Positions 2,198-56,923 of a stretch of 64,000 nucleotides of DNA are shown piece by piece (within the stretch, counting starts at the first letter, position 1; each line of letters opens with the position of its first letter). Made by a program: the position numbers and the translations under genes. This stretch comes from Patescibacteria group bacterium (GTDB lineage: Bacteria; Patescibacteriota; Patescibacteriia; UM-FILTER-42-10). The notes under the pieces are model-generated. The model saw only the letters and a program-made list of their open reading frames with translations, searched no databases and was not told where the DNA came from. The DNA lies in the NCBI GenBank assembly GCA_041666485.1, contig JBAYGW010000003.1, forward strand, positions 16,415-80,414. The letters run 5' to 3'.

Positions 2198-3163
2198 ATG
2201 GTTAGTAAAAAAGACGAAGTAAATGACAGCAAATTCAGAGTGGCATTTTTCGGCACGCCGGATTTTGCCGTGCCGGCTTTACAGGCACTGCTCTCCATGC
2301 CGGAAATTTACGTGCTCGCCGCTGTTACCCAGCCCGATAAGCCGGCCGGAAGAAAACAGGAGCTGACGGCCCCGCCGATAAAAAAATTGGCGGAACAATA
2401 TAATCTGCCGGTCTGCCAGCCGGAACGGATAAAATCGGTAAAATTTGAACAGTGCTTACGAAATGTCAATCTAGATCTCGCGATCGTTGTGGCTTACGGC
2501 AAAATCATTCCGGAAAAAGTTCTGGACATACCAAAATACGGCTGGTTGAATATTCACGGATCTTTGTTGCCGAAATACCGCGGTGCTTCGCCGATTCAGG
2601 CAGCAATCTTAAATGATGAAAAAGAGACAGGAATTACGCTGATGAAAATTGATGCCGGTTTGGACACGGGAGCCATAATTAATCAAAAAACCATTCCGAT
2701 CATGAGTGGTGACAATTTTGAGTCACTGCATGACAAGCTTGCTCTGCTCGGAGCAGATATTTTAAAAAGTTCACTACTTGACTACTTAAACGGAAAACTG
2801 AAGCCGGTACCGCAGGACGATTTGAAAGCGACTAAAACGCTGATTATAAAAAAAGAAGACGGAAAAATTGATTGGTCAAAAGATGCGTCCGTAATTGCCA
2901 GACACATTAGGGCATATAATCCGTGGCCGGGTTCTTTTTGCAAGTATTACAATAAGACCCTGAAAATACACTCTGCGGAAATAGCTGACGCAAAAGTTCA
3001 ACTGAGTCCTGGTAAAATTTCATATATTGATAATTCCCTTGTAATCGGCTGCGGAAAGGGTAATTTGAAAGTAACTGAACTTCAATTGGAAGGTAAAAGA
3101 TTGCAAACAGCCAATGAATTTATTAATGGTATTCCAGATTTTAGAAATGCTCAGCTTGCTTAA
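2198..3163 (+). CDS. fmt: methionyl-tRNA formyltransferase
   Basis: 321-aa ORF; FFGTPDFAVP N-terminus and HGSLLPKYRGASPIQ catalytic motif. Confidence 0.95.
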   Translation: MVSKKDEVNDSKFRVAFFGTPDFAVPALQALLSMPEIYVLAAVTQPDKPAGRKQELTAPPIKKLAEQYNLPVCQPERIKSVKFEQCLRNVNLDLAIVVAYGKIIPEKVLDIPKYGWLNIHGSLLPKYRGASPIQAAILNDEKETGITLMKIDAGLDTGAIINQKTIPIMSGDNFESLHDKLALLGADILKSSLLDYLNGKLKPVPQDDLKATKTLIIKKEDGKIDWSKDASVIARHIRAYNPWPGSFCKYYNKTLKIHSAEIADAKVQLSPGKISYIDNSLVIGCGKGNLKVTELQLEGKRLQTANEFINGIPDFRNAQLA

Positions 3164-10307: not shown

Positions 10308-10440
10308 TTGCTCAAGTGTCTTAATGATATAGCAATTTGTTACCGCCTGTCAAGTCGGGTCACAACTCCTCATAAAGCCAATCTTGACAATAACGTACTT
10401 TTGTATTACTTTCTTTGTATGTTGATCTTTGAAACAACGA

Positions 10441-10575: not shown

Positions 10576-10760
10576 CTTTCTTCTACAAATTGCTTTGTGC
10601 GGACGCTTAAGTCCGTTTGTGATAGTCACCCCACAACCCGATCCTACAGGGAGGTACGCCAAATGTACTCGTGGAGTTACGCACGCCACGGGTTCGGTTG
10701 ACCTGCGATCTTCTCCGTCTGAGTAGTCAATGCCCACGACTCAAAATGAGGAGATCTCGC

Positions 10761-17461: not shown

Positions 17462-17462
17462 A

Positions 17463-18041: not shown

Positions 18042-18054
18042 TTCAGAATTATAA

Positions 18055-18753: not shown

Positions 18754-18771
18754 ATGATATTCAGCTAATAA

Positions 18772-19236: not shown

Positions 19237-19586
19237 TATGACAGTCCTAATTCATCTTTAGCACTTTCCTTTACCATATCCGGTGTCCAGGGCGGATCCC
19301 AGACTAGGTACACCTTTGCACTTTTTATGCCCGGGAGCTTTTCTAGAACTTCCTGCGCCTGTCTGGTAATCGGACCTGCAAGCGGGCACCCCGGGAAAGT
19401 CAGTGTCATTTTTAGGGTCACAGCATTATTGCGTACCGATAAGCTATATATCAGACCGAGATCAACAATATTGATTCCTAATTCCGGATCCATTACTTCC
19501 CTTAATGCATTCTCAGCTGATTTCTTTGTAATTTTGTCCTGAAGCTTTATTTGTGGCTTTTTTTTATTCATAACGCAGAGCGTCAA
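19236..19586 (-). CDS. DUF59/MIP18-family Fe-S cluster assembly protein
   Basis: VMDPELGINIVDLGLIY and FPGCP motifs. Confidence 0.85.
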   Translation of the reverse strand: MTLCVMNKKKPQIKLQDKITKKSAENALREVMDPELGINIVDLGLIYSLSVRNNAVTLKMTLTFPGCPLAGPITRQAQEVLEKLPGIKSAKVYLVWDPPWTPDMVKESAKDELGLS

Positions 19587-20802
19587 TCGGATTTTTTCTT
19601 GCGGCTTTTGATGCCGGCATTATTCCAAATACTATTCCAACAATGACAGATACGCCAAATGCTAATGCTAGTGAAAAAACAGTTATTAGCGCCGGAATGC
19701 CGTAGTATTTGGTAATCAATTGAGTCACTACGTACGCCAGACCAACTCCTATGAATCCGCCCAGTAAACTCAAGACGCTTGATTCAATTAAGAATTGGAA
19801 TAAAATATTTGAGCCGGACGCTCCCAACGCTTTTCTGATTCCAATTTCTCTTGTTCTCTCTGTTACAGACACCAGCATGATGTTCATAATTCCAATTCCA
19901 CCAACAATTAATGATATTGCGGCTATTCCGACGATTGCATTTGTTAATATTCCAAAAAAATCATCAAAGAGATCCAGCATATCGTCAGTTGTTAATACAG
20001 AAAAATCTTTAATTCCCTTATGCCGCTCCAACATTAAACTGTTGACTGTTTCAACACCAGGAGCGACCGCTTCGGTTGAATTGAAATTAATCATTATTCT
20101 AAAAATATTCAGTGCCTCAAGGGTGTCCTCAGCTGTACTGATTGGAATTGTGTATGCTTCATGCAGGTTCGGCATTTGACTCGTCATCATGTTACTATCG
20201 TCACCTCCGCCGCTTAGGAATCCTACATCAGTTTCCACAACTCCGATTACCTCAAATTCCTCTTCTAACACTTTTACTTTCTGCCCGACTGCTGAACCTT
20301 CAAAGTCACGTTTCGCAGCATCACGGCCAACCAGAATTACTTTCGCCTTGTTTTCAATATCTTCGGCAGAAATATACCTTCCTTCAATGGCTTTGATATC
20401 TACTATTTTGTTCATCTGATCATTTGTTGCTAAAACCATCGGAAGATACGGATTGCCTACTGGAGGGGTCACAGCACTTGGCACAATCATGAGCGGCGCA
20501 ACTGCTTTCACATTTTCCACCTCGCTGATTGCATCCACATCCCCCATTGTTAATGCCGACATACTCATAAATGAAGCTGGATTCATTTCGCCATTAGTGA
20601 TATCTCCCGCAATCACAGCCGCTAAATTTCCGCCTAACGAATCAACTGCACCGGTAAATTCTTGTTTTACCCCGTCTCCAATACTGACTAATGTTATTAC
20701 GGAAAACACTCCAATAATTATGCCAAGCATAGTCAATACGGACCGCATACGATTTGCCCAGATTGCCGATAATGCAAAGCGGATACTTTCTAAAATGTTC
20801 AT
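19564..20802 (-). CDS. MacB/FtsX-type ABC transporter permease
   Basis: 412-aa ORF with a MacB periplasmic domain between TM1 and TM2, a C-terminal FtsX domain and a RKALGA motif. Confidence 0.9.
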   Translation of the reverse strand: MNILESIRFALSAIWANRMRSVLTMLGIIIGVFSVITLVSIGDGVKQEFTGAVDSLGGNLAAVIAGDITNGEMNPASFMSMSALTMGDVDAISEVENVKAVAPLMIVPSAVTPPVGNPYLPMVLATNDQMNKIVDIKAIEGRYISAEDIENKAKVILVGRDAAKRDFEGSAVGQKVKVLEEEFEVIGVVETDVGFLSGGGDDSNMMTSQMPNLHEAYTIPISTAEDTLEALNIFRIMINFNSTEAVAPGVETVNSLMLERHKGIKDFSVLTTDDMLDLFDDFFGILTNAIVGIAAISLIVGGIGIMNIMLVSVTERTREIGIRKALGASGSNILFQFLIESSVLSLLGGFIGVGLAYVVTQLITKYYGIPALITVFSLALAFGVSVIVGIVFGIMPASKAARKNPIDALRYE

Positions 20803-21485
20803 ACATTTGCTCCTTCCAATTCGCCGTCCACGATTCTTATTGTTTTATTCGCCCACTTCGCTATCTCAGGATCGTGAGTCACTATTAATAATGTCGTCCC
20901 CCTCTGATTGGCCGCTTTCAGCAGTTCCATAATTTCCCTTCCTGTTTTAGTGTCTAAATTACCAGTCGGCTCGTCTGCTAAAATTATTTCCGGTTGATTG
21001 ACTAATGCTCTGGCAATTGCCGCCCTTTGCGCTTCTCCGCCGGAAAGCTCATTCGGTTTATGGTGCATCCGCTCGGTAATTCCAACTGATTTTATGGCAT
21101 CCAATACTTTTTGCTTCCTTTCGGCTCTTGGCTCCTTAGCATAAATCAGTGGAAGCTCAACATTCTTATAAACGGAATACCTCGGCAATAGGTTATAGCT
21201 CTGGAAAATGAATCCGATTTTTTTGCCGCGCATTTTTGGAAATTCTCGTTTGGCAATTTCTAAAATATTTTGTCCGTCCAGTTCATACAAACCGTCCGTC
21301 GGCCAGTCCAACAGGCCGATAATGTTCATCAGAGACGATTTACCAGATCCCGATGGACCCATAAATGCAACAAAATCCCCCTTTTCTATTTCAAGGGAAA
21401 CATGTTTAATTACCGGAAGAAGCCTCTTTTTGCCTATCTGATACGACTTGTCAATTTTATCTAATTTAATTACTGATTTTGGCAT
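20799..21485 (-). CDS. ABC transporter ATP-binding protein (MacB/LolD-like)
   Basis: Walker A GPSGSGKS, signature LSGGEAQR and Walker B ILADEPTG. Confidence 0.95.
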   Translation of the reverse strand: MPKSVIKLDKIDKSYQIGKKRLLPVIKHVSLEIEKGDFVAFMGPSGSGKSSLMNIIGLLDWPTDGLYELDGQNILEIAKREFPKMRGKKIGFIFQSYNLLPRYSVYKNVELPLIYAKEPRAERKQKVLDAIKSVGITERMHHKPNELSGGEAQRAAIARALVNQPEIILADEPTGNLDTKTGREIMELLKAANQRGTTLLIVTHDPEIAKWANKTIRIVDGELEGANV

Positions 21486-21761
21486 TTATTTATTTCTTTT
21501 AGCTATCAAAAAAATAAAACTAATAAACAAAGTTACGAGTGTAATCAATTCGGCGAACATTATTGACACAGAACTGGTCTGCACAAAGAATATTCTTGAA
21601 ATGTAGTATATTGCGCCAAAAACAATCAGATTCAGAATAACCAAAAATGCAAACTTCATAACTAGTGACATATGCCCTGCCGGAAGCATTCTTTCCGGAT
21701 TACTCTCCTGTTTGTTCAATAACGGGGTTGGCTTATTTTTTTCGTTATTTTTTTCAGCCAT
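21486..21761 (-). CDS. hypothetical small membrane protein
   Basis: 91-aa ORF with two TM helices, abutting the ABC ATPase gene. Confidence 0.45.
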   Translation of the reverse strand: MAEKNNEKNKPTPLLNKQESNPERMLPAGHMSLVMKFAFLVILNLIVFGAIYYISRIFFVQTSSVSIMFAELITLVTLFISFIFLIAKRNK

Positions 21762-21797
21762 TGAATTATTATTAATGTTTAGCCTTAATATTATAGC

Positions 21798-22718
21798 CTA
21801 TTTGTTCAGCAATTTCAATAATCTCTCACCCACGGAATATGGAACAGTTCTATTTTTTGAAATATACCCCAGAGGCAGTCCCGGTATGCTCTTATTATGG
21901 AAATCGCTGCCGCCTGTAATCTGCAGATTATTGCGTTCCGCAAATTTCAGCAGATTTTTAATATCTTTTACATAATGATCGGAAGCATATGCTTCTATAC
22001 CGTCTAATCCCATTTTTTTTAATGCTAGAAGATTTTTTGACCAAGTTCCTTTTACCGGCCACAGAGATAAATCCGGGGAATATCTTCTGCCTAACGGATG
22101 GGAAATAAACGCATATCCTCCCGCGTCATGAATAAGTTTGATCGCCTGTCCGGCGGAGAGATTCTTTTTTTCCGCATACGCGGCCGCGCTTTTAACCAAA
22201 TATTTTGCAATAAATTGTGAACGGTCAGGTATAAATCCGAAATTTTTGATTAATATTTTATTATTCCTTTTATCAAATATTACTTGATCGGCAAGATGCG
22301 GACGACCGATAATTTTTTCCGCTCTGTTTCTCACTCCGATGTAGCTGACCGCGTAGCCCAGACGGTTCAGGTTTATAATCATCTTTTTAATGCGGGTCAC
22401 TCGGCTATTAATATAAAACTGGCTTGCTCTCTTCATTGCGATGTGGTGATAATCAAATCCGTATCCCAACAAATGTAATTCTTCCCCTTTGAATGTGACT
22501 GTTATTTCAATTCCGGAAATAAATGGAAATCCGTATTGCTTAGCCTTTTTTTCAACATCATGCATGCCGATTGCAGAATCATGATCACAGACCACTAAAA
22601 TTTTTACTCCAGATTTTTTTGCCATACGGAAAAGCTCTGATGGCGTCAATGATCCGTCAGAGTGGATAGAATGCACCTGTAGATCCACTAGTTTCTGTTT
22701 CCTTTTCATTATAATCAT
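21798..22718 (-). CDS. PHP domain-containing phosphoesterase
   Basis: DLQVHSIHSDGS N-terminal metal-binding motif of the PHP (TrpH/YciV-like) family. Confidence 0.8.
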   Translation of the reverse strand: MIIMKRKQKLVDLQVHSIHSDGSLTPSELFRMAKKSGVKILVVCDHDSAIGMHDVEKKAKQYGFPFISGIEITVTFKGEELHLLGYGFDYHHIAMKRASQFYINSRVTRIKKMIINLNRLGYAVSYIGVRNRAEKIIGRPHLADQVIFDKRNNKILIKNFGFIPDRSQFIAKYLVKSAAAYAEKKNLSAGQAIKLIHDAGGYAFISHPLGRRYSPDLSLWPVKGTWSKNLLALKKMGLDGIEAYASDHYVKDIKNLLKFAERNNLQITGGSDFHNKSIPGLPLGYISKNRTVPYSVGERLLKLLNK

Positions 22719-22841: not shown

Positions 22842-22878
22842 AAAAAACCTGCCCAACACGTGAGTTGTGTTTAGACAG
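22842..22878 (-). terminator. intrinsic terminator of the purH cassette
   Basis: Imperfect CCTGTCTAAACAC...GTGTTGGGCAGG hairpin followed by TTTTTTA on the minus strand. Confidence 0.55.
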
Positions 22879-22907
22879 GGTCCTTTTGAAAAATGTGCAA
22901 ACGCCCT

Positions 22908-24497
22908 CTAGTGCCAGAACATCCGGCGATCGGTAAAGAGCATCGCGATGCCCAGTTTGTCCGCGGACCTGATTGAATCCTGGTCGCGAATTGAACCGCC
23001 CTGCTGGACGATCGTCTTGACGCCGAACGTGTCCGCCAGGCGCACGCAGTCGTCAAACGGGAAGAAGCTGTCGGACACCAGCACAGCATGGTGCAGATCC
23101 ATATTCTGCGCCTCCATGTTGTTCATGGCCTGCTCCAGAGCAAGCCGTGCCGACTTGATCCGGCTGGTCTGGCCGTTGCCGATGCCGATCGTCTGCCCGT
23201 TCCAGACCACGATGACCGAGTTGGACTTGACGTGCTTTGACACATTGCAGCCGAAACTGATATCCGACCAGTAGCGGTCCTTGACACCGAGCTTGGTGAC
23301 GCACCGGAACGACCTGCAGTCAAACAGCTCGGTGTCCATCAGCTGGACCACCATGCCGCCGGTCACCGGCTTGAAGTTCAGCGTGCCGAACGGCATGCTG
23401 CAGGAAAGCTCCCCACCCAGTTTGAACAGCGGGGTCTCTGCCCTGGCGCGCTTCTTGGTGATGTGTTCCATCGCCTCCGGCGAAAAATCCAGCGCGACGA
23501 TCGCGTCCACCTTCTGCACGCAGATGGTTTCAGCGACTTCCTCCGTCACCTGGAAGTTGAGTACCACCACCCCGCCGAAAGCCGATTCCGGATCGCACGC
23601 CAGTGCGTTCTGGAAAGCCTTCAGCGGACTGAAGCTGTCCATCGCCACTCCGCACGGCGTACCATGCTTGATGATCGCGACTGCGAATTCCGGGGACAGG
23701 TCGCGGACCGTCTCAATGCCGGCATTGATATCCAGCACAGTGGTGGCCGAGAGCGGCTTGCCCCAGATCTGCTTGGCGTTTGCCGCGGTGTAGCAGTTCA
23801 GACCCGGCAGTTCGTAGAACGCACCCGGCTGATGCGGATTCTCACCGTAGCGCAGATCACACTTCTTCTGCAGACGCTGAACCATCCGATCCGGGAAGCT
23901 GGGGAACTCAAGGCGTTCAGCCAGCCAGTCGGAGATCGTGGCGTCATACCACGCAGTGTGAAGAAACGCCTTGTAAGCCAGTTGCAGACGTTCCAGCGCG
24001 TTGAACCCGACATCTTCCGAAAGACACCGAATCACAAAGCCGTACTGCTCTGGTGAAGTGACCACCAGCACATGGCTGTGATTCTTCGCGGCCGCGCGGA
24101 TCAGTGCCACGCCGCCGATATCAATCTGCTCAATCGCGTCCCGAAATGCCACGGTCCGATCAGCCACCGTCTCTTCAAACGGATACAGGTTGACCACGAC
24201 CATGTCAAACGGGTAGATGCTGTGATCAAACAGCTCCTGCATGTGCGCGTCGCTGTCCTGATCCGCCAGGATCCCGCCGTGGATCTTCGGATGCAGAGTC
24301 TTCACCCTGCCACCCAGAATTTCCGGGAAACCGGTCACCTCCTCTACCGTTCGCACGGGAATTCCGGCTTCCACCAGGTGTCTGGACGTTCCGCCGGAAG
24401 ATACAATCTCCCAGCCATGTTCAAACAGCACGGTGGCAAGCTCAACAATGCCGCGCTTGTCGGACACGCTGATCAGAGCGCGCTGATTTGCTCGCAT
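22908..24497 (-). CDS. purH: bifunctional AICAR transformylase / IMP cyclohydrolase
   Basis: ALISVSDK, GGRVKTLHPKIHGGIL, GENPHQ and QQGGSIRD motifs. Start set at MRANQ, preceded by AAAGGAGC. Strongly G+C-rich relative to its flanks. Confidence 0.93.
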   Translation of the reverse strand: MRANQRALISVSDKRGIVELATVLFEHGWEIVSSGGTSRHLVEAGIPVRTVEEVTGFPEILGGRVKTLHPKIHGGILADQDSDAHMQELFDHSIYPFDMVVVNLYPFEETVADRTVAFRDAIEQIDIGGVALIRAAAKNHSHVLVVTSPEQYGFVIRCLSEDVGFNALERLQLAYKAFLHTAWYDATISDWLAERLEFPSFPDRMVQRLQKKCDLRYGENPHQPGAFYELPGLNCYTAANAKQIWGKPLSATTVLDINAGIETVRDLSPEFAVAIIKHGTPCGVAMDSFSPLKAFQNALACDPESAFGGVVVLNFQVTEEVAETICVQKVDAIVALDFSPEAMEHITKKRARAETPLFKLGGELSCSMPFGTLNFKPVTGGMVVQLMDTELFDCRSFRCVTKLGVKDRYWSDISFGCNVSKHVKSNSVIVVWNGQTIGIGNGQTSRIKSARLALEQAMNNMEAQNMDLHHAVLVSDSFFPFDDCVRLADTFGVKTIVQQGGSIRDQDSIRSADKLGIAMLFTDRRMFWH

Positions 24498-24563
24498 TTC
24501 TGCTCCTTTCGTGGCAAACCGTGAAGCTTTCACCGCAAACAACCGTTTGGGAAACGGTTTTTT

Positions 24564-24592
24564 AACTTATCACTCCGACTGACGCAAGTCAA
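24564..24592 (-). promoter_or_regulatory. sigma70-like promoter of the purH cassette
   Basis: TTGACT, a 17-nt spacer, then TAAGTT on the minus strand, about 70 nt upstream of the purH ATG. Confidence 0.45.
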
Positions 24593-24641
24593 ATCAAAAA
24601 CGGGTGACTTTCACCCGCATTTAATTATGAATGAATATGTC

Positions 24642-34912: not shown

Positions 34913-36415
34913 TTAGGTAATTGTAAAAATATTGATTTTTTCAATCGCTTTCTTTGCCAGTTCAATTCTTTCCCTGCGATTCGCGTAAAAAGTGAACAGT
35001 TTACTACCCTTTTTAACTTCCTGTCCAACCCTTTTGTGGAGGTAAATGCCGGCCAATTTTTCTGAAGGCGCACCTAGTGTTCTCGCAATTTCGTCAATTG
35101 CTTTATTATCTACTGCGGTTATTTTACCTGACTTTGCGGAAAGTACACGGTAATACTCACCGCCTAAGACCACTGCGTCGGAATCAATTGTAGAATTACC
35201 ACCCTGTTCCTTGATCACCACCTGCATTTTTTTCCACGCCTTACCTGATACCAGAATTTCTTCCGCAACTGATTTTCCCTTACCGCGCGCCACCTGCCCC
35301 GATATTTCCAGAAGTTTTCCCGCCAAAACCAGTGCTTTATCTTCTAAATCTTTCGGCCTGTTACTTTTTTGCTGCAATACCCGGAGAACATCGCGTGATT
35401 CCAAGGCCGGTCCAACCCCTCTGCCGACCGGTTCATTGGCAAAAATTTTTTCAACATGTATTTTAATCCCAAAACGCTTGCCAAGATACATAAACTTTTT
35501 TTCAATCTCATTCGCGGTCTTCATATCCGGAATTTTTGAGGTGATTCCGACCGGCATATCAATCACCAGATACTTGATACCCATGGCAACTTTTTTCGCC
35601 ATAATACTTACCACCATTTTATCAAACGGTTCCAAGGAGAGTGGTTTTGTCACCTGAATAATCAAATCATCCGCCGGAGCAATATTTAAACCACCGCCCC
35701 AGATCATACATACTTTGTTTTTCATCACCATTTGTTTGATTCTGGTCATGGAAAATCCGACCGGAGCCAATACTTCCATAGTATCCGCCGTACCCGACGG
35801 TGAAGTGATCGCCCGGGAGGAGGTTTTTGGAATATATAAACCAAAGGCTGCAACAATCGGAACAACAATCATAGTTGTCCTATTGCCGGCCAAACCGCCG
35901 ACGGAATGTTTATCAACTACAATTTTATTTCCGGAAAATCTCAACTGCTCGCCGGTTTCCGCAATTGATTTTGTAAGATAATACAGCTCCAGTGGAGTAT
36001 AAGGCCTTGCAAAACTAGACGCGACAAAATATGATGTTTCCACCGGTCCGAGTCTGCGGCTGACAATATCTGCTATGATTGAATGAATTTCCTCATAACT
36101 TAAAACACCGCCCTTAATTTTCTTATTAATTGCTTTTACTGATTCCGGACGTTCAACGATTGAAACCTCAATGATTTGATCTTTCTTCATCGGGTACTTC
36201 GCCCAGATCTCTTCAAAAAAACCGATCTCCCCCGGCTTTATTTCATTTTCCGCCAGGTTTACAGTAGCAAATATTCTTTTACGGTTATGCCAGGACAAAC
36301 CGATATGGTCATTAGCATGAATACCAAAATTGAGGGCTTCTTTTTCATTTAAAAGCACCTTCGGCATCTCGCCGGTTTCAATATCAATTTTTTTTGCCCT
36401 TAAATAAAATGCCAT
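34913..36415 (-). CDS. deoA: AMP phosphorylase (thymidine phosphorylase family, archaeal DeoA type)
   Basis: 500-aa ORF with the N-terminal extension typical of AMPpase and a DKHSVGG phosphate-binding motif. Sits in an operon context with RuBisCO and R15P isomerase. Confidence 0.85.
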   Translation of the reverse strand: MAFYLRAKKIDIETGEMPKVLLNEKEALNFGIHANDHIGLSWHNRKRIFATVNLAENEIKPGEIGFFEEIWAKYPMKKDQIIEVSIVERPESVKAINKKIKGGVLSYEEIHSIIADIVSRRLGPVETSYFVASSFARPYTPLELYYLTKSIAETGEQLRFSGNKIVVDKHSVGGLAGNRTTMIVVPIVAAFGLYIPKTSSRAITSPSGTADTMEVLAPVGFSMTRIKQMVMKNKVCMIWGGGLNIAPADDLIIQVTKPLSLEPFDKMVVSIMAKKVAMGIKYLVIDMPVGITSKIPDMKTANEIEKKFMYLGKRFGIKIHVEKIFANEPVGRGVGPALESRDVLRVLQQKSNRPKDLEDKALVLAGKLLEISGQVARGKGKSVAEEILVSGKAWKKMQVVIKEQGGNSTIDSDAVVLGGEYYRVLSAKSGKITAVDNKAIDEIARTLGAPSEKLAGIYLHKRVGQEVKKGSKLFTFYANRRERIELAKKAIEKINIFTIT

Positions 36416-36420
36416 GATTA

Positions 36421-36475
36421 GTAATTCGTAATTAGCAATTGGTAATTAGTAATTAGCAACGTGTAATTCGCTGTA
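36421..36475. repeat. AATTAC/GTAATT heptamer array (candidate operator) upstream of the AMP phosphorylase gene
   Basis: On the minus strand: TAATTACTAATTACCAATTGCTAATTACGAATTAC, 5 nt before the ATG. Five AATTAC units in about 55 nt. Confidence 0.6.
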
Positions 36476-36516
36476 TAATGCCGTATGTACAGGTCTGATA
36501 TTAAGATGTAAAAAAA

Positions 36517-37761
36517 TTACTTATCCCCATCCTTCCAATGTCTGAGCGCAACGGCTAACTCTCCGTGGTCTTTGGCATACTCATCCAGATCAATCCCCGC
36601 AAGCGTCGCGTCTAATGCCTGTTTAACGGCTGTCGCTCCGGCAAATGTTCCTTCCGGATGACCATGGATACCCCCGCCAAAATTCAGAATTACATCTTTG
36701 CCGAATATTTTATAAAGCGAAGGTATTAAATTGGGATACAACCCGCCTGATGCGATCGGGAATGTTGATTTAATATTAAACCACTTACTGCGCAGAAAAT
36801 CATCTATTTCAACTACATCACTTTTTCCACCCTCCATTTTCCCCACAACCGTGCCGGTGTGCAGCTGATCAATACCTGCCAGACGCGCCAATTTTGACAG
36901 CACTAGCATACTCATTCCATGTTTTTGGTTCTTAGTGAACATAGAATGCCCAGCTCTGTGACCGTGAATTATAAGACCTAAATCCCGTTTGCGTAACATT
37001 TGCACATTATCAAGTCCTACGGAAACCATGTCAATCATTACCACTTCACCGCCGAGGCTTTTGACCAGCTGCGCTCTTTTGATCATTTCATCCGGTTGTG
37101 CTGTTACATTAAACACGCACAATTTTTTGCAGCCTGTTTCTTTTTCCGCTTTATCCCTCATTTTAAGAGTAAGCCGGACTCGCTGATCAAATCGGCTGAA
37201 AGAAAGGTCGGTTAAATTTTCATCATCTTTGACCAGATCAATTCCACCGATAAAGACCTGGTAAGACAGTGTGGCATGCTGCAGAGCGGACAAGCCCAGC
37301 TTTGGTTTCAGAATTGATCCCAGTATGGGCCGGTCATAAATTCCCATAATGCGCCTGATCCCTTTTATGCCGAAACGCGGGCCCTGAAAACTTTCAACAT
37401 ATTCTTTCGGAAAGTCTACATCCACTAATCTGAGATTCCTTATGATCTTCATACTAAAAACATTACCCGCCACACCGGATAAAAATTGCGGGATGCTCCC
37501 CTTTTCAAAAAGCGCCAAGGGATAGGCAACTTTGAATGTATGGGCTTTTTTATCAATATCATATGCTTTCGCGCTCAGCTTCGTGAATGTTGCTTTGGAT
37601 AATGTGGCAAGATCCGTCCAGGTTCCAATAGAAGATTCCGCCGCCACTCCGCCCGCCGCATCGTTAAAATCAACATTGGTATCCATATAGAATGAAGCGA
37701 CAAGTTCTGTTTTCTTCGGCTGATAGCTTTTTTTTACAAATTTTTGGTAAAATTTATTCAT
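36517..37761 (-). CDS. rbcL: ribulose-1,5-bisphosphate carboxylase large subunit, form III-like (II/III)
   Basis: GGIDLVKDDENL (carbamylated Lys motif) and NFGGGIHGHPEG. Start set at MNKFYQ, 1 nt after the upstream stop. Confidence 0.9.
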   Translation of the reverse strand: MNKFYQKFVKKSYQPKKTELVASFYMDTNVDFNDAAGGVAAESSIGTWTDLATLSKATFTKLSAKAYDIDKKAHTFKVAYPLALFEKGSIPQFLSGVAGNVFSMKIIRNLRLVDVDFPKEYVESFQGPRFGIKGIRRIMGIYDRPILGSILKPKLGLSALQHATLSYQVFIGGIDLVKDDENLTDLSFSRFDQRVRLTLKMRDKAEKETGCKKLCVFNVTAQPDEMIKRAQLVKSLGGEVVMIDMVSVGLDNVQMLRKRDLGLIIHGHRAGHSMFTKNQKHGMSMLVLSKLARLAGIDQLHTGTVVGKMEGGKSDVVEIDDFLRSKWFNIKSTFPIASGGLYPNLIPSLYKIFGKDVILNFGGGIHGHPEGTFAGATAVKQALDATLAGIDLDEYAKDHGELAVALRHWKDGDK

Positions 37762-37762
37762 A

Positions 37763-38719
37763 TTATAGATTCTTGAAAATCCATGGATAATGCTTTTCAA
37801 CTAAATAAGCAACATCACGTGGCTTAATAATACCAAATTCACAAATTATTCCTTTGATGAATTTAGATGGAATGCGGTCAAAAGCGAAATTGATTATTTT
37901 TAATCCTTTCGGACCGTTCGGCCAGATTTCTTTGCGATCCCGCAATTCAATGCCAACATATTTGCTGATAAATGTTTCCGGATCGGTTTTTAAAAGTGAA
38001 GCGGCGACATAAACCGGAATTTTTTCGTGGTTAGCAACCTGGGCGATTCCGTAGCTACCGACTTTGTTGATCACTGAGCCGCCGGATGTAACCGAGTCTG
38101 CACCCAAAAAAGCAATATCCACCATCACTTCCCGGCCACTGGTTCTGCTGATCAGAAAAGCGGCAGCTGAATCAGCCACCATTGTGACGTCAATCTTTCG
38201 CTTTAATAGATTCTTAGCTGTTATTCGCCCCTGGAAAAGCGGGCGGGTTTCTGTACAAAAAACATGCGGCATCTTTGAATGTTTATTAGCCTCAGTAATA
38301 ATATGCTCCACAGTTGAAGAATGGCAGTGCGTGAATACTTTCATATCTTGCTTAATCAGTTTTGCGCCGGCTACGGCAATTTTTTGATCATGATATTTCA
38401 GCAAAACTAAAAAAAGATGGCAAGCTTTTTTTAGCAACTTCGCCAACTCAGGCACGGATAAACCTTCTTTATTATTCTCTAAATAATGTAAAACGAATTG
38501 GACTGAATTACGGGACAGCGGTTCGGTCGGCCTTGCTTCCGCCAAGGCTTTGCCACTTTTACGAATAGCAGAAAGAAACTGGCTTTTATTTTTTTTTAGC
38601 AATTGATTACTTTCCAACTGCAACGCGTCCAAAATTACTTTGGTTATCTGCGTTGCACCCTGTATTTCTAAAGATGCTATTTTTGTTACTGTTTTTTGTA
38701 CTGCGCTATTCATAAACAC
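37763..38719 (-). CDS. ribose-1,5-bisphosphate isomerase (eIF-2B alpha/beta/delta family, E2b2-type)
   Basis: 318-aa eIF-2B-family ORF (TRPLFQGR, GADSV motifs) directly upstream of RuBisCO. Confidence 0.8.
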   Translation of the reverse strand: MFMNSAVQKTVTKIASLEIQGATQITKVILDALQLESNQLLKKNKSQFLSAIRKSGKALAEARPTEPLSRNSVQFVLHYLENNKEGLSVPELAKLLKKACHLFLVLLKYHDQKIAVAGAKLIKQDMKVFTHCHSSTVEHIITEANKHSKMPHVFCTETRPLFQGRITAKNLLKRKIDVTMVADSAAAFLISRTSGREVMVDIAFLGADSVTSGGSVINKVGSYGIAQVANHEKIPVYVAASLLKTDPETFISKYVGIELRDRKEIWPNGPKGLKIINFAFDRIPSKFIKGIICEFGIIKPRDVAYLVEKHYPWIFKNL

Positions 38720-38734
38720 AGTATACCATTTATA

Positions 38735-40558
38735 TCATTCCCATTCAATCGTCCCTGGCGGCTTGTTGGTGAAATCAAAAACAATCAAATCTATTTGTTT
38801 TATTCTTTTTAAGCGTCCGACAACCTGGTCAATAAAAGATCGGGACAACGGGAAATACTTGACCGTCATTGCTTCCTCCGATTGCACGGGGCGCAAAATT
38901 ACTGTGTAGCCGCCCGCAATGGAATATGGGGCCAGGATTACGGGAAATTGCCAGATTTTAGAATCCAGTCGGGCTTTTTTCATTTCAGACTGTACTATGT
39001 CGTCAATATTCTGCAGTAGAGCCACGTTTTTTTTCGTCAGCAGAAGTTTAATATTTTTTCCTCCGCTAATATCTTTTTTCCTGCTAAAAATCACCCAGCA
39101 CACCCGATTTACATTTTGAATCTGATTTGCCACGAGCGGACCGAGCTTTTGCATTTGAATAGTATTCATTTCTCCGGAGAAAACCGCGGGATGGGCGTAA
39201 GTCCGTTCATCGCCCTGAACGCCCACACTTCTGACCGGTAGTACCCAGCCTTTAATATCTGATTTGTTCTCATAATTGAACTGCGAGATTATTATATCCA
39301 AATCGGCATTTTCTTTCTTTACATTTACATGCACCTTATTTCCCCGGGAACAAATTATACGGATTGCCAACCCCGGACCGGGAAATGGATGACGATTGAT
39401 AATTTCTCCAGGCAAGCCGATCTGCTTGCCGAGCTGCCGTACTTCGTCTTTGTACAAGTCTTTCAAAGGCTCAATGACCAACCCGCGTTTTATTAATTCC
39501 AAAACTTCTTTTACCCGATTATGGTGTGTTTTTATTTTATCGGCGTGCTTCGTCCCGCCCGATTCAATTGTATCCGGATAAATAGTCCCCTGCGCCAGAA
39601 TCCATTCCTTTGGATTCAGTTTGAATTTCTTCATCGCAATTCTTTGAACATCCAGATACGTCCTGCCGATAATCTCGCGTTTGCGTTCCGGACTGATAAT
39701 ACCTTTTAACCTCTTATAGAATAGTACGGAAGCATCCATTACTTCCAGATTGGTAAACCCTAGTTTATTGAAACGTTTTTTTATTTCCTCTGATTCATTT
39801 TTTCTCATGAACCCCAGATCAATATGCAGACCAAACACCTTTTCTTTGCCCAAGATCCGATTCAGTAACCCGAAACATACGGCAGAATCAACTCCGCCGG
39901 AAACCAGCAAAAATACCTTGCGACTTCCTACTTTCCTAACTATCTCTTTTTCAATATCAGTTAAGTAATGTTTAATATCCCATTCCTTTTTAGCGCCGCA
40001 GATACTGAAAACAAAGTTATTAATTAATTCCATTCCACGTTCTGTATGTGATACTTCGGGGTGAAACTGGACTCCGTATATTTTCATTATGCTGTTTCCC
40101 ATCGCTGCTACCGGGCAATCAGCAGTCTTTGCCATGACTTTAAATCCCTTCGGCACATTTAATACAAGATCACCATGACTCATCCAAACCTGTTCGTTTG
40201 CACCAAATTTCCTGAACAGCTTGCCGGGTTCAATTACTGACAGGTTGGCAAAACCATATTCTCTCACATCACCCCTGACTACTTTTCCGCCCATTAGATA
40301 GGTGATCAGTTGGTGACCATAGCAAACACCTAGGATTGGTACGCCGCTTTTCAGTATTCTCCGGTCAAATTTTATTTTCCCGTCATAAACGCTGTTTGGT
40401 CCGCCGGACAGGATTATTCCCCAGGACGACCTTAATTCTTCAAGTGGCGTTTCGGGATTGTAAATATTAGCTAAAACACCAAGTTGCCGGATTCTGCGTG
40501 CAATCAGGTGGGTATATTGTGAACCAAAATCCAGAATTGTTATGTGTTTTTGTTTCAT
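38735..40558 (-). CDS. guaA: GMP synthase (glutamine-hydrolysing), long-form C-terminal domain
   Basis: GATase GVCYGHQL, PP-loop SGGVDS, SVGVQGDERTY and C-terminal GTIEWE. At 607 aa it is longer than typical bacterial GuaA. Confidence 0.93.
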   Translation of the reverse strand: MKQKHITILDFGSQYTHLIARRIRQLGVLANIYNPETPLEELRSSWGIILSGGPNSVYDGKIKFDRRILKSGVPILGVCYGHQLITYLMGGKVVRGDVREYGFANLSVIEPGKLFRKFGANEQVWMSHGDLVLNVPKGFKVMAKTADCPVAAMGNSIMKIYGVQFHPEVSHTERGMELINNFVFSICGAKKEWDIKHYLTDIEKEIVRKVGSRKVFLLVSGGVDSAVCFGLLNRILGKEKVFGLHIDLGFMRKNESEEIKKRFNKLGFTNLEVMDASVLFYKRLKGIISPERKREIIGRTYLDVQRIAMKKFKLNPKEWILAQGTIYPDTIESGGTKHADKIKTHHNRVKEVLELIKRGLVIEPLKDLYKDEVRQLGKQIGLPGEIINRHPFPGPGLAIRIICSRGNKVHVNVKKENADLDIIISQFNYENKSDIKGWVLPVRSVGVQGDERTYAHPAVFSGEMNTIQMQKLGPLVANQIQNVNRVCWVIFSRKKDISGGKNIKLLLTKKNVALLQNIDDIVQSEMKKARLDSKIWQFPVILAPYSIAGGYTVILRPVQSEEAMTVKYFPLSRSFIDQVVGRLKRIKQIDLIVFDFTNKPPGTIEWE

Positions 40559-40711: not shown

Positions 40712-42187
40712 ATGTTTACCCAGTTTGAAGAAACATTAACATTTGATGATGTATTGTTAGTTCCGCAAAAGTCATCAATTCTTCCGAATGAAACCGAGAT
40801 TAAAACCAGGCTGACACGCAGGATAAATTTAAATATTCCATTAATCTCATCCCCGATGGACACTGTAACCGAACACCGGCTGGCGATCGCCCTGGCACTG
40901 CACGGCGGAATCGGGATAATTCATAAAAATATGCCTGCCGACAAACAGGCGCAGGAAGTAAGTTTTGTAAAAAGATTTGAAAACGGCTTTATTGAAAATC
41001 CTGCCACACTGCAGCCGGAAGATCCGATTGATGACGCGGCGGAAATTAGAGACAAAAAAGGATACAAAAAAATTCCGATTGTTGATAAAAACAACAAGCT
41101 GGTGGGAATGATTACCGAGCAGGATTATTTCGTGCCCGACGATTTGAAACTGCCGATAAAATTTAAAATGAAACGTTTGAATGAAATTGTGGTCGCTAAG
41201 CACGGCATCACCCTCCAACAAGCAAATAAAATTATTAGGGAGAAAAAGCTCACCGCATTGCCGATCGTTAATAAGCAGGGAAAACTGGTTAGTATGGTTA
41301 CCAGAAAAGATTTGGAAAAAAACGAGCAGCACCCCAATGCCTGCAAGGATGATAAAAAACAACTGCGGGTCGGTGCCGCTATTTCCGTCGGCCCGGAAGC
41401 TCTGGAACGCGCCAAATATTTGGTTGCCGCCGGAGTAGATGTATTGGTCGTTGATACCGCTCACGGCCATACTAAGGGCGTATTGGATACGGTAAGAGCG
41501 CTGAAAAAAAATAAATTGTTTTCTAATATTGATATCATCGCCGGGAATGTCGCAACAGAAGAAGGAACCAGAGATCTGATCAGGGCTGGTGCGGACGCTG
41601 TAAAGGTAGGGGTCGGGCCGGGATCAATCTGTACCACCAGAGTAATTGCGGGGATCGGTGTACCACAAATCAGCGCGATTCTGGCGGCGGTAAAAGGCCG
41701 GGGTAAATCCAATATTCCCATTATTGCTGACGGCGGTATCCGATACTCAGGCGATATAGTAAAAGCACTTGGTGCTAAAGCGGATTCCGTAATGATCGGC
41801 AGTCTTTTTGCCGGTTGTGAAGAAACACCAGGTGAAATAGAGTATGAAGGTGGCAAAATGTATAAATCCTACCGCGGGATGGGTTCAAAAGAAGCCATGA
41901 TCCACGGATCCAAAGACCGTTACGGACAGGGAGAGCAAAAAGACAGTGAAAAACTGGTGCCGGAAGGTGTATCAGCCAGGGTTATTTATAAAGGGCTGGT
42001 TTCAAGACACATATATCAGTTGATCGGCGGGATTAGATCCGGTATGGGTTATATCGGCTCTAAAACAATTTCGGAGTTGCACAGGAAAGCAAGATTTATT
42101 AAAATCAGCTCTGCGGGACTGCGAGAAAGTCATCCACATGATGTAACAATTACAAAACAGCCGCCAAATTATCATTCGGAAAAATAA
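40712..42187 (+). CDS. guaB: IMP dehydrogenase
   Basis: CBS pair insert, [11 protein letters not shown] catalytic Cys loop and GGIRYSGD. Confidence 0.95.
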
Positions 42188-55810: not shown

Positions 55811-56923
55811 ATGGACCAACGATTTGTCGATCTGGCGAGAGTCATGGTCGGCCATTCCACAAGGGTCTCAAAGGACGATATCGTCATCGTCAAGAGCACG
55901 GAGGTAGTGCCGCCCGACATGATCTTCGCGGTGATCCAGACCGTGCGCGAAGCGGGGGGCTCCGTGATCCCCTGGCGCTACGATCCGCGCATTGACTTCG
56001 AGGCATTCAGGGGTGGCACCGCTCACCAGCTGCGTGCCTGGGGCGCCGGCCAGTTTACCCAACTGGCTGCCGCCAACTGCTTCATTGAGTTCCGGCCGTT
56101 CAGTAACCAGCTCGACGGCAACGACGTGCCGGCAGCGGACATGCAGCGCCACGGCGAGGTGTTCGTTCCGCTGACGGTTGAACAGCGCGTGGAACGCACC
56201 CGCTGGGTGCTGACCCGCTGGCCGACGCCGGCCAACGCCCAGTTGGCCGGGATGTCCACGACGCAGTTCGAAGAGTTCTTCTTCAAGGCATGCCTCGCCG
56301 ACTACGGCGCCATGGCCAAGGCCGTGAAGCCGCTCGTCGCCCTGATGGAGCGGACCGACCAGGTCCAGATCCAAGGGCCGGGCGACACCGATCTCACTTT
56401 CAGCATCAAGGGAATTCCGATCATCGCCTGTACCGGATCGCACAACATCCCCGACGGCGAAGTGTTCACGGCGCCGGTTCGCGATTCCATGAACGGCGTG
56501 ATCGCCTACAACACCCCCACGGTCAACTCCCGCGGCCAGCGGTTCACCAATCTCCGCTTCGTGGTCAAGGCGGGCAAGATCGTGGAGGCGACCTGCGAGA
56601 CGGGTGACCAGACGGCGCTGGACGCCTTCCTGGACACCGACGAGGGTGCCCGCTACTTCGGCGAATTCGCCCTCGGCATCAACAACTTCGTCACGGGTGT
56701 GATCGGCGAAACGCTGTTCGACGAGAAGGTCGGTGGAAGCCTCCACTTGACGCCCGGCCGGTGCTATGAGCAAGCGCCGAACGGGAACCAGTCGGCCAAC
56801 CACTGGGACATCGTCTGCGATCAGCGCGGGGCTTCCGGTGGTGGGGAGATCTACTTCGACGGCAAGCTGGTCCGCAGCAAAGGGCTTTTCATCCCGAAGA
56901 GCCTCCACGCGCTCAATCCCTGA
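55811..56923 (+). CDS. M29 family aminopeptidase (AmpS/PepS-like)
   Basis: 370-aa ORF; NIPDGEVFTAP and HWDIV motifs of thermophilic metalloprotease M29. GGGAGG SD. Strongly G+C-rich. Confidence 0.82.
   Translation: MDQRFVDLARVMVGHSTRVSKDDIVIVKSTEVVPPDMIFAVIQTVREAGGSVIPWRYDPRIDFEAFRGGTAHQLRAWGAGQFTQLAAANCFIEFRPFSNQLDGNDVPAADMQRHGEVFVPLTVEQRVERTRWVLTRWPTPANAQLAGMSTTQFEEFFFKACLADYGAMAKAVKPLVALMERTDQVQIQGPGDTDLTFSIKGIPIIACTGSHNIPDGEVFTAPVRDSMNGVIAYNTPTVNSRGQRFTNLRFVVKAGKIVEATCETGDQTALDAFLDTDEGARYFGEFALGINNFVTGVIGETLFDEKVGGSLHLTPGRCYEQAPNGNQSANHWDIVCDQRGASGGGEIYFDGKLVRSKGLFIPKSLHALNP

What the first reader, a model, noticed from the sequence alone, without database searches (positions are those of the whole stretch)
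22842..24592. Orphan, foreign-looking purH as the only de novo purine gene, close to native guaA/guaB and the AMP-salvage operon
purH (AICAR transformylase/IMP cyclohydrolase) is the most G+C-rich large gene in the window. It carries its own promoter-like signal, an AAAGGAGC SD and a terminator. No other pur gene is visible in 64 kb, whereas A+T-rich guaB and guaA lie 14-18 kb away.

Reduced genomes of this type are generally described as lacking de novo nucleotide synthesis. A lone PurH could convert scavenged AICAR/ZMP to IMP, feeding GuaB then GuaA. That would be a horizontally acquired patch on a salvage network, which is inference.
Basis: partly seen in the sequence, partly recalled or inferred. 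Interest (0 to 1): 0.55.

Follow-up and report, generated by a model that had tools for sequence, protein, structure and literature searches.

The report
Lineage-conserved lone purH, persistently GC-rich

Summary
The observation mostly holds. Window 22908-24497 (- strand) encodes a 529-aa PurH with both domains and its catalytic motifs intact. It has its own Shine-Dalgarno site, a promoter-like element conserved in relatives, and a hairpin-plus-T6 terminator. GC is 0.59 and GC3 0.77, against a window gene median GC3 of 0.39. No other pur gene was found in the 64 kb. guaA, guaB and the AMP phosphorylase/isomerase/RuBisCO operon lie 10-18 kb away. One detail is wrong: an M29 aminopeptidase (55811-56923, GC 0.63) is more G+C-rich.

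The "recent foreign patch" reading is not supported.
- Nine PurH sequences (49-100% identity) form one clade (100/100 NJ bootstraps).
- Eight sit in Patescibacteria contexts; seven directly beside the PHP gene (five with the full PHP-hyp91-ABC-FtsX row), in independent assemblies.
- All are G+C-rich (GC3 0.55-0.81) against flanks of 0.36-0.43 GC.
- No non-clade protein exceeds 48% identity, and there is no insertion scar.
- A Ca. Kerfeldbacteria relative has purM next to purH, which hints at a remnant rather than a gain.

The most likely function is ZMP/AICAR to IMP conversion feeding GuaB and GuaA. This is inferred. Genome-wide orphan status could not be tested. The persistent G+C-rich codon usage, shared with M29 and another gene, is unexplained. 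The gene itself is an ordinary family member and the context is mildly interesting.

The parts
22908..24497 (-). purH coding sequence (529 aa plus TAG stop): N-terminal IMP cyclohydrolase (MGS-like) domain and C-terminal AICAR transformylase domain
   Evidence: Pfam PF02142 (1.4e-21) and PF01808 (1e-85). NCBIfam NF002049 at 592 bits, cutoff 402. PDB PurH 3zzm E=4e-103 with the motifs aligned. GC 0.591, GC3 0.768.
24502..24509 (-). Shine-Dalgarno AAAGGAGC. Its GGAG core ends 5 nt before the ATG.
   Evidence: Read from the sequence. Relatives have GGGG or GGAG at the same position.
24564..24592 (-). Promoter-like element: -35 TTGACT (24592-24587), 17-nt spacer, TG-extended -10 TGaTAAGTT (-10 hexamer 24569-24564)
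   Evidence: Read from the sequence. The hexamers are invariant in L001, L004 and L006. Below the threshold of the consensus scan, so function is inferred.
24541..24559 (-). Conserved hairpin AACCGTTTcccAAACGGTT at the predicted 5' end of the purH leader
   Evidence: Inverted repeat (I8). Conserved in L001, L004 and L006. No Rfam family matches the leader.
22842..22879 (-). Intrinsic terminator of purH: CCTGTC..GGCAGG hairpin with an inner stem, then TTTTTT
   Evidence: Read from the sequence. Present in all relatives, with compensatory stem changes in L006 and L004.
24596..24618 (-). Terminator of the upstream MauE/DoxX gene. It separates that gene from purH.
   Evidence: Terminator scan: 8-bp stem with 5 GC pairs and a T-run.
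21798..22718 (-). PHP-domain phosphoesterase, the conserved downstream neighbour of purH. It resembles 3',5'-nucleoside bisphosphate phosphatase / RNase RNM but scores below their cutoffs.
   Evidence: Pfam PF02811. NCBIfam NF041577 at 150 bits, cutoff 400. Next to purH in 7 of the related loci.
38735..40558 (-). guaA (GMP synthase, 607 aa), native composition (GC 0.42)
   Evidence: NCBIfam NF000848 at 541 bits, cutoff 400. Pfam.
40712..42187 (+). guaB (IMP dehydrogenase), the predicted consumer of PurH's product
   Evidence: TIGR01302 at 582 bits, cutoff 481.5.
34913..38719 (-). AMP phosphorylase (34913-36415), form III-type RuBisCO (36517-37800) and ribose-1,5-bisphosphate isomerase (37763-38719): the nucleotide-ribose salvage operon
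   Evidence: Pfam. AMP phosphorylase scores 529 bits on TIGR03327 (cutoff 535) and 548 bits on NF003338 (cutoff 434).
2198..3163 (+). fmt (methionyl-tRNA formyltransferase). It shows the cell uses 10-formyl-THF, which is PurH's cofactor.
   Evidence: TIGR00460 at 288 bits, cutoff 201.5.
55811..56923 (+). M29 aminopeptidase, a second gene-bounded G+C-rich island with the same codon usage as purH
   Evidence: Pfam PF02073. GC 0.634, GC3 0.846. The orthologue in L016 has the same synteny with GC 0.627 and GC3 0.84. RSCU correlation with purH r = 0.80.

Best explanation
This is a canonical, functional, monocistronic purH. A narrow clade of Patescibacteria (Ca. Kerfeldbacteria and relatives) has inherited it vertically, at one chromosomal locus, since before its members diverged to about 50% PurH identity. 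In the window's sub-clade it stands without neighbouring pur genes.

The most likely function is to take ZMP/AICAR and formylate it with 10-formyl-THF. The ZMP could come from scavenged AICA base or riboside, or from a residual pathway elsewhere in the genome. PurH would then cyclise the product to IMP, which GuaB and GuaA convert to GMP.

Its origin is ancient. Either an early acquisition or a remnant of a larger pur gene set is possible. The purM neighbour in a relative favours the remnant reading.

The G+C-rich codon usage is a long-standing property of the gene across the clade. It is shared with a few other genes and is not a mark of recent transfer.

**Shown:** gene identity, intact motifs, purifying selection, conserved synteny, a single clade, and clade-wide G+C richness.
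**Inferred:** the substrate source, flux to GuaB, absence of the rest of the pathway, and the cause of the G+C richness.
For: **Identity.**
- Pfam and NCBIfam matches.
- PDB PurH hits with the motifs aligned: SVSDK, GGT, RVKTLHP, NLYPF, IDIGG, AAAKN, RYGENPHQ, KH-PCG, KSNS, GQTSRI, FFPFDD, GGSIRD.
- The catalytic Lys-His pair is named in PMC9525906.

**Selection.** dN/dS is 0.17-0.24 among orthologues.

**Vertical descent.**
- Orthologues at 79-82% identity lie between the MauE/DoxX and PHP genes on contigs of 1.18 Mb, 392 kb and 225 kb.
- Orthologues at 49-51% identity are also followed by PHP-hyp91-ABC(-FtsX), directly in L010 and L013 and after purM plus one gene in L008. L014 shows only the upstream DUF2703 gene.
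- The clade P0001-P0009 is supported by 100 of 100 NJ bootstraps.
- A clade-specific motif scan of JGI metagenomes found only 5 stretches. Two are known contigs, and the two new loci that were examined show the same synteny.

**Transcription unit.** The promoter-like element and the terminator are conserved in relatives.

**Cofactor user present.** fmt.

**No pur partner.** None in the window. None within about 10 kb in 7 related loci. The relative's purM has no close orthologue on the long contigs of the window clade.

**Old G+C richness.**
- GC3 is 0.55-0.81 in every member, against flank GC of 0.36-0.43.
- Synonymous sites between the window and L010 or L008 are 82-87% of the way to saturation, about the same as in flanking genes.
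Against: - The rest of the genome was not available, so a complete pathway elsewhere cannot be excluded.
- No ZMP source (his genes, kinase, a specific PRTase) was identified. The PRTase at 59094-59861 is unassigned.
- The clade carries substitutions at sites that are at least 95% invariant in the other 111 bacterial PurH sequences of the set. The main one is SYNN to SATT in the transformylase domain. Its effect is unknown.
- The TIGR00355 score (508) is just under its cutoff (528).
- purH dN/dS is higher than in most flanking genes.
- purH lies 14-18 kb from guaA and guaB and is not co-transcribed with them.
- The tree is NJ only and is built from the 120 best hits.
Confidence: 0.6

Rival explanations
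1. Recent horizontal acquisition: purH was imported from a G+C-rich donor into this strain or species as a patch on a salvage network, and its composition has not yet ameliorated.
For: - GC step bounded by the gene, 0.59 against 0.39.
- Own promoter and terminator.
- Codon usage unrelated to native genes, RSCU r = 0.17.
- A two-state model prefers declining GC3 in the window sub-clade: root 0.86, LRT 8.0.
Against: - The gene sits at the same locus in all 8 contexts examined, spanning 49-100% PurH identity.
- The clade is monophyletic, 100 of 100 bootstraps.
- The best outside homologue is 48% identical or less.
- There are no flanking repeats, tRNA or mobility genes.
- Divergence of purH among relatives is similar to that of its flanks.
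Confidence: 0.05
2. purH is not an orphan. The genome encodes the rest of the de novo purine pathway on other contigs, and purH is simply unclustered.
For: - A Ca. Kerfeldbacteria relative has purM adjacent to purH (TIGR00878 at 300 bits, cutoff 236).
- Another Kerfeldbacteria contig carries a stand-alone IMP cyclohydrolase domain gene.
- Only 64 kb of a genome of roughly 1 Mb was seen.
Against: - No pur gene in 64 kb, nor within +/-10 kb in 7 relatives.
- The Kerfeldbacteria purM has only two relatives above the generic bacterial background (54% and 34% identity). None lies on the 1.18 Mb, 392 kb or 225-285 kb contigs of the window clade. This is weak evidence.
- CPR bacteria are generally reported to lack nucleotide synthesis (PMC7304191).
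Confidence: 0.2
3. The enzyme has changed function, or is partly disabled, in this clade. For example it might keep only the cyclohydrolase half or use a different formyl donor or substrate.
For: - Clade-wide replacements at sites that are at least 95% invariant in other bacterial PurH: N252T, N253T, A260G, N280T, F329K, E331D, R356P, H526M.
- dN/dS is higher than in most neighbours.
- Stand-alone half-enzymes exist in prokaryotes (PMC6486802).
Against: - The catalytic Lys-His pair, the AICAR phosphate-binding RYGENPHQ motif, the Ser-Asn pair and FFPFDD are all intact.
- Three of the replacements (V130, D331, M/L526) match states seen in avian ATIC in the alignment. A fourth (T280, where human ATIC has Ser) rests on my recollection of the human sequence.
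- The protein is full length in all nine members, with dN/dS well below 1.
Confidence: 0.1
4. Assembly chimera or contamination: a G+C-rich fragment from another organism was joined into an A+T-rich contig.
For: Only the abrupt change in composition.
Against: The same junctions recur in independent assemblies from JGI, ENA, NCBI and Logan samples. The intergenic promoter and terminator are conserved across them.
Confidence: 0.01

Closest known systems
Bacterial bifunctional PurH (AICAR transformylase / IMP cyclohydrolase), e.g. Mycobacterium tuberculosis PurH (PDB 3ZZM) and Campylobacter PurH (4EHI)
   Same: Same two-domain architecture and length, with full-length alignment (E = 4e-103 to 3zzm). 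The catalytic and substrate-binding motifs are conserved. It scores above the NF002049 equivalog cutoff.
   Different: - At most 48% identity to any non-clade sequence.
- Clade-specific replacements at otherwise invariant transformylase sites, such as SYNN to SATT.
- Not embedded in a pur operon.
- Sits in a reduced Patescibacteria genome.
Split or alternative last-step enzymes: PurV/PurJ (separate AICARFT and IMPCH domains), PurO, PurP (PMC6486802)
   Same: They catalyse the same two reactions. A Ca. Kerfeldbacteria contig (L017) does carry a stand-alone 200-aa IMPCH-domain gene.
   Different: The window gene is the fused, full-length PurH. The L017 half-gene is not specifically related to it (45% identity, against 51-55% to other bacteria).
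AICAR recycling by PurH/ATIC from the histidine pathway by-product (yeast ADE16/17, C. neoformans; PMC9525906)
   Same: PurH consumes AICAR that does not come from the upstream purine steps. Removing ZMP also has a detoxifying role.
   Different: No his genes were seen here, so the AICAR source is unknown. The analogy rests on established pathway knowledge and was not tested.
Archaeal-type AMP/nucleoside salvage with form III RuBisCO in CPR bacteria (PMC5113843, PMC6389311)
   Same: The window carries the AMP phosphorylase, R15P isomerase and RuBisCO operon next to guaA and guaB. In relative L010 this block lies about 5.5 kb from purH, with guaA about 9 kb away.
   Different: purH is not a described component of that pathway. 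It is a separate transcription unit.

Membership tests
PurH (bifunctional AICARFT/IMPCH; Pfam PF02142+PF01808, NCBIfam NF002049/TIGR00355) | N-terminal MGS-like IMP cyclohydrolase domain fused to a C-terminal AICAR transformylase domain, about 510-530 aa | tested here: met
   PF02142 covers residues 31-145 and PF01808 covers 151-471 of the 544-aa ORF. The protein is 529 aa from the ATG.
PurH (bifunctional AICARFT/IMPCH; Pfam PF02142+PF01808, NCBIfam NF002049/TIGR00355) | Score above curated equivalog cutoffs | tested here: met
   NF002049 scores 592 bits against a cutoff of 402. TIGR00355 scores 508 bits, just below its cutoff of 528.
PurH (bifunctional AICARFT/IMPCH; Pfam PF02142+PF01808, NCBIfam NF002049/TIGR00355) | IMP cyclohydrolase active-site residues (human Arg64, Lys66, Thr67, Tyr104, Asp125, Lys137) | tested here: met
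   The motifs GRVKTLHP, NLYPF, IDIGG and AAAKN align with the PDB PurH/ATIC chains. The residue list comes from PMC9525906.
PurH (bifunctional AICARFT/IMPCH; Pfam PF02142+PF01808, NCBIfam NF002049/TIGR00355) | AICAR transformylase catalytic Lys-His pair and AICAR/folate-binding motifs | tested here: met
   IIKHGTPCG, RYGENPHQ, KSNS, GQTSRI, FFPFDD and GGSIRD are all present. However, the SYNN motif is SATT in the whole clade, and the consequence is unknown.
PurH (bifunctional AICARFT/IMPCH; Pfam PF02142+PF01808, NCBIfam NF002049/TIGR00355) | Both enzymatic activities demonstrated | not testable with these tools
   Needs expression of the protein and enzyme assays.
Complete de novo purine pathway (purF to purH) | The other pur genes are present in the same genome | tested here: inconclusive
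   None found in the 64-kb window or within +/-10 kb in relatives. The exception is purM in L008 and L018. The rest of the genome could not be reached.
Recently transferred genomic island | Atypical base composition and codon usage | tested here: met
   GC 0.59 and GC3 0.77 against a median GC3 of 0.39. RSCU correlation with native genes r = 0.17.
Recently transferred genomic island | Patchy presence among close relatives, or empty sites | tested here: not met
   purH is present at the same locus in every related contig examined.
Recently transferred genomic island | Insertion scars: flanking direct repeats, tRNA target, integrase or transposase | tested here: not met
   Only chance-level repeats. 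The only tRNA is at 60.1 kb. No mobility genes lie nearby.
Recently transferred genomic island | A close homologue in a donor lineage, or a gene tree that conflicts with the species tree | tested here: not met
   The best non-clade hit is 48% identical or less. The clade is monophyletic at 100 of 100 bootstraps.
ZTP (pfl) riboswitch-controlled purH | pfl/ZTP RNA motif in the 5' leader | tested here: not met
   No Rfam hit at the gathering threshold in the window. Nothing meaningful at E up to 10 in the leader.

The most novel reading that the evidence does not exclude
A small set of genes in this A+T-rich Patescibacteria clade keeps a distinct G+C-rich codon dialect over evolutionary times at which neighbouring genes' synonymous sites have saturated. 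The set includes purH, the M29 aminopeptidase and a 405-421-aa hypothetical protein.

This would mean a sustained gene-specific force rather than leftover foreign composition. Candidates are selection on codon choice or mRNA properties, biased gene conversion linked to frequent exchange, or repeated re-seeding from an unsampled G+C-rich partner.

In that reading, lone PurH is a retained and specially handled node that links scavenged ZMP and one-carbon status to GMP synthesis.
Probability: 0.25. Interest if true: 0.6.

Novelty: new member of a known kind. Interest (0 to 1): 0.35.

Why it matters
**Purine metabolism.** If the orphan status holds genome-wide, a whole Patescibacteria lineage has kept just the last enzyme of purine synthesis for a long time. 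That points to ZMP/AICAR, or its base or riboside, as a metabolite these symbionts obtain or must dispose of. It would also add an entry point to the IMP-to-GMP branch alongside the known AMP/RuBisCO salvage route.

**Method.** The case is a warning for genome scans. A sharp, gene-bounded G+C island with foreign codon usage was not evidence of recent transfer here.

**Open question.** The persistence of that composition in several genes could be tested with complete genomes and population data.

Tried and rejected
1. **ZTP or other riboswitch in the purH leader.** Rfam found nothing at the gathering threshold or at E up to 10.
2. **Insertion scars or mobile-element context.** None found.
3. 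**Assembly chimera.** Rejected because the same junctions recur in independent assemblies.
4. **Lower synonymous divergence in purH than in its flanks.** Jukes-Cantor-corrected dS first suggested that purH diverged at least 3 times less than its flanks. Calibrating against composition-specific saturation removed most of the contrast. I do not rely on the first result.
5. **Parsimony test of GC-to-AT against AT-to-GC singletons.** Counts were 78 to 16. A hand calculation shows that a skewed composition at equilibrium can give a ratio of about 2-3 on its own, so the test does not decide the question.
6. **Two-state non-stationary ML model.** It prefers declining GC3 (LRT 8.0). It cannot separate an equilibrium GC3 of 0.30 from one of 0.70, because the likelihood is flat.
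7. **Literature on purH or AICAR in CPR/Patescibacteria/Kerfeldbacteria.** Nothing relevant was found. The M. tuberculosis PurH structure paper was not held, so the role of the SYNN asparagines stays unassigned.
8. **Scan of representative genomes.** It returned only one close relative.
9. **Stand-alone IMPCH gene in L017.** It is not a derivative of this clade's PurH.
Full report
**What is there.**
The window is bacterial and A+T-rich (GC 0.405). It carries def, fmt, fpg and dnaX. It also has the CPR-typical AMP phosphorylase / ribose-1,5-bisphosphate isomerase / RuBisCO operon next to guaA and guaB.

An ORF at 22908-24542 on the minus strand matches Pfam MGS and AICARFT_IMPCHas. The ATG at 24497 follows AAAGGAGC and gives 529 aa, the length of the closest orthologues.

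The protein passes the NCBIfam PurH equivalog NF002049 (592 bits, cutoff 402). It falls just short of TIGR00355 (508 bits, cutoff 528). It aligns end to end with solved PurH structures, for example 3zzm at E = 4e-103.

These motifs are present:
- IMP cyclohydrolase domain: SVSDK, GGT, GRVKTLHP, NLYPF, IDIGG, AAAKN.
- AICAR transformylase domain: RYGENPHQ, IIKHGTPCG, KSNS, GQTSRI, FFPFDD, GGSIRD.

The catalytic Lys-His pair and the cyclohydrolase residue list are as named in PMC9525906.

**Composition.**
GC jumps from about 0.38 to 0.58-0.62 exactly at the gene borders. For purH, GC is 0.591 and GC3 is 0.768, against a median GC3 of 0.39 over 76 window ORFs.

purH is not the most G+C-rich large gene. 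The M29 aminopeptidase at 55811-56923 has GC 0.634 and GC3 0.846. Smaller G+C-rich blocks lie at 10.4-11.6 kb and 15.5-15.9 kb.

**Transcription unit.**
- The upstream MauE/DoxX gene ends with a good terminator at 24618-24596.
- Between that terminator and the ATG lies TTGACT, 17 nt, TGaTAAGTT. The simple consensus scan does not report it. It is invariant in three close relatives, as is a following hairpin at 24559-24541.
- Downstream, a hairpin plus T6 (22879-22842) is conserved, with compensatory stem changes.
- No riboswitch was detected. In particular there is no ZTP/pfl motif, which often controls purH.

**Other pur genes.**
Pfam scans covered about 60 of the 76 window ORFs, essentially all of 125 aa or more. 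Four more ORFs were named only from relatives' synteny annotations. No other purine-synthesis gene was found.

What is present is nucleotide-handling equipment:
- several NUDIX hydrolases;
- an unassigned phosphoribosyltransferase (59094-59861);
- a TRZ/ATZ-type deaminase next to guaB;
- a LOG-like protein.

fmt shows that 10-formyl-THF is used in the cell.

**Is it foreign?**
The exact protein is on ENA, JGI and NCBI contigs of 69-84 kb, annotated by NCBI as PurH.

*Close orthologues.* Proteins at 79-82% identity sit on contigs of 1.18 Mb, 392 kb and 225-285 kb. The gene order there is the same as in the window: abhydrolase, MauE/DoxX, purH, PHP, hyp91, ABC, FtsX, FeS-assembly, Maf, CNNM. L004 has three extra genes inserted around purH. 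One of these contigs is named "Patescibacteria group bacterium".

*Distant orthologues.* The next relatives, at 49-51% identity, again lie next to PHP-hyp91-ABC-FtsX. One of them is from Ca. Kerfeldbacteria GCA_002784945.1.

*Tree.* In an NJ tree of the 120 best hits, these nine sequences form one clade in 100 of 100 bootstraps. The nearest outsiders are at most 48% identical and include Moorella and other Bacillota, and Persephonella.

*Rarity.* A clade-specific motif (SATT..D.NAG.E) occurs in only five JGI metagenome stretches. Two are already-known contigs, and the two new loci I examined show the same synteny.

*No insertion signs.* There are no flanking repeats, tRNA or mobility genes.

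Any transfer happened before this clade diversified, and no donor can be named.

**The composition puzzle.**

*All clade members are G+C-rich.*

| Locus | GC3 of purH |
|---|---|
| Window | 0.77 |
| L001 | 0.77 |
| L004 | 0.75 |
| L006 | 0.81 |
| L015 | 0.70 |
| L010 | 0.65 |
| L008 | 0.61 |
| L013 | 0.60 |
| L014 | 0.55 |

Flank GC in these loci is 0.36-0.43.

*Protein and synonymous divergence.* Protein divergence of purH among the four close genomes (76-84% identity) is in the range of the flanking genes (70-96%). dN/dS is 0.17-0.24, which indicates purifying selection.

I measured synonymous divergence against a saturation level specific to each gene's codon usage. Between the window and L010 or L008, purH is 82-87% of the way to saturation. 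That is about the same as the flanking genes. Both lineages nevertheless remain G+C-rich.

*Neutral decay does not fit well.* Suppose GC3 decays neutrally toward the flank equilibrium (about 0.385) at that turnover rate. By my hand calculation from those numbers, GC3 would be at most about 0.6-0.64, even starting from GC3 = 1.0. The window sub-clade exceeds this.

*Model fit.* A two-state non-stationary fit prefers a declining GC3 in the window sub-clade (root 0.86, LRT 8.0). It cannot fix the equilibrium value, because the likelihood is flat between 0.30 and 0.70.

*Two withdrawn indicators.* The JC-corrected dS contrast and the parsimony singleton counts turned out to be biased by composition. 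I do not rely on either.

*Shared codon dialect.* purH, M29 and a 405-aa hypothetical gene of relatives share one codon dialect (RSCU r = 0.76-0.86). It is unrelated to that of native genes (r about 0). The M29 orthologue in the closest relative is equally G+C-rich and in the same synteny.

*Conclusion.* The foreign look is old and shared by the clade. Its cause is unexplained. It could be very slow amelioration of an extremely G+C-rich ancestral gene. It could be selection or biased conversion on these genes. It could be repeated re-seeding from an unsampled source.

**Remnant or gain?**
In the Ca. Kerfeldbacteria relative, purH is followed by a 476-aa purM (TIGR00878 at 300 bits, cutoff 236), which is also G+C-rich. 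An independent JGI contig (L018) repeats the same order and ORF sizes.

That purM has only two relatives above the generic bacterial background, at 54% and 34% identity. Neither is on the long contigs of the window clade. This suggests an ancestor with more pur genes and later loss down to purH alone. The evidence is thin.

Another Kerfeldbacteria contig has an unrelated stand-alone IMP cyclohydrolase domain gene.

**Function.**
*Shown:* an intact, conserved, selected PurH with its own expression signals.

*Inferred from the established roles of PurH:* it converts ZMP to FAICAR using 10-formyl-THF, and FAICAR to IMP. GuaB and GuaA, 14-18 kb away, take IMP on to GMP. In relative L010, purH lies only about 9 kb from guaA and the RuBisCO operon.

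*Still open:* the ZMP source is unknown.

*Clade-specific substitutions.* The clade carries replacements at sites that are at least 95% invariant in the other bacterial PurH sequences of the set: P130V, N252T/N253T, A260G, N280T, F329K, E331D, R356P and H526M. Three of the new states (V130, D331, M/L526) are seen in avian ATIC in the alignment. A fourth (T280, where human ATIC has Ser) rests on my recollection of the human sequence. The SYNN-to-SATT change has no precedent that I could find.

**Verdict.**
- The "recent foreign patch" interpretation is not supported.
- The orphan-salvage function is plausible but unproven.
- The gene is an ordinary member of a well-known family and is already auto-annotated in public MAGs.
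- The modest interest lies in its long retention as an apparently lone pur gene in a reduced lineage, and in the unexplained persistence of G+C-rich codon usage in a handful of genes.

Noticed in passing
window 10400-10760 (+ strand), between the ArsR-like HTH gene (9957-10307, -) and a small G+C-rich gene: This is a non-coding leader of about 350 nt. It includes a roughly 130-nt stretch that is almost 100% identical to relative L006, far better conserved than the adjacent coding DNA. It folds with z = -3.2. It has no Rfam match. It is a candidate for an undescribed structured RNA or riboswitch.
   Followed up: partly
window 10761-11126 (+) and about 11277-11573 (+): Two small G+C-rich genes (GC about 0.54-0.65) with strong Shine-Dalgarno sites and Cys-rich motifs (CTCGSC; CCPVCH). 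Differences from L006 fall mostly at third codon positions, which indicates coding sequence. The first has no NCBIfam match; the second was not scanned. Their function is unknown.
   Followed up: partly
window 55811-56923 (+): An M29 aminopeptidase that is the most G+C-rich gene in the window (GC 0.634, GC3 0.85). It is conserved in the same synteny and composition in relative L016. Homologues at 49-55% identity occur in other Patescibacteria and Kerfeldbacteria. Its codon usage matches that of purH.
   Followed up: yes
L001 17654-18871, L004 18709-19926, L010 18040-19305 (absent from the window): A conserved 405-421-aa hypothetical protein downstream of the CNNM gene in relatives is also G+C-rich (GC 0.55-0.60, GC3 0.66-0.77). 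It uses the purH-like codon dialect. The window has no homologue by tblastn.
   Followed up: partly
L008 11901-13331 and L018 1736-3172 (-): A Ca. Kerfeldbacteria relative carries a long-form purM (476-478 aa, with an N-terminal extension of about 120-170 aa) immediately after purH. It is also G+C-rich. It has only two relatives above the generic bacterial background among 5.8 billion proteins, at 54% and 34% identity.
   Followed up: partly
L017 5226-5828: A Ca. Kerfeldbacteria contig (47% GC) encodes a stand-alone 200-aa IMP cyclohydrolase domain (purJ-like) directly upstream of its M29 aminopeptidase gene. It is not specifically related to the window's PurH clade.
   Followed up: partly
window 15515-15895 (-): A 126-aa ORF with GC 0.58 and GC3 0.73 and no Pfam match. 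It is another small G+C-rich island of unknown nature.
   Followed up: no
window 16460-22718 compared with L001, L004, L006 and L010: Neighbouring genes differ widely in synonymous divergence for the same pair of genomes. For window against L006, ABC, FtsX and PHP give tau of 0.7-0.9, while Maf and CNNM give 1.3-1.5. This suggests a recombination mosaic among these Patescibacteria lineages.
   Followed up: no
window 38735-40558 (-): guaA is unusually long (607 aa). Its match to the GMP synthase model NF000848 comes in two stretches, which implies an insertion of about 90 aa before the C-terminal dimerisation domain. The same length is seen in relative L010.
   Followed up: no
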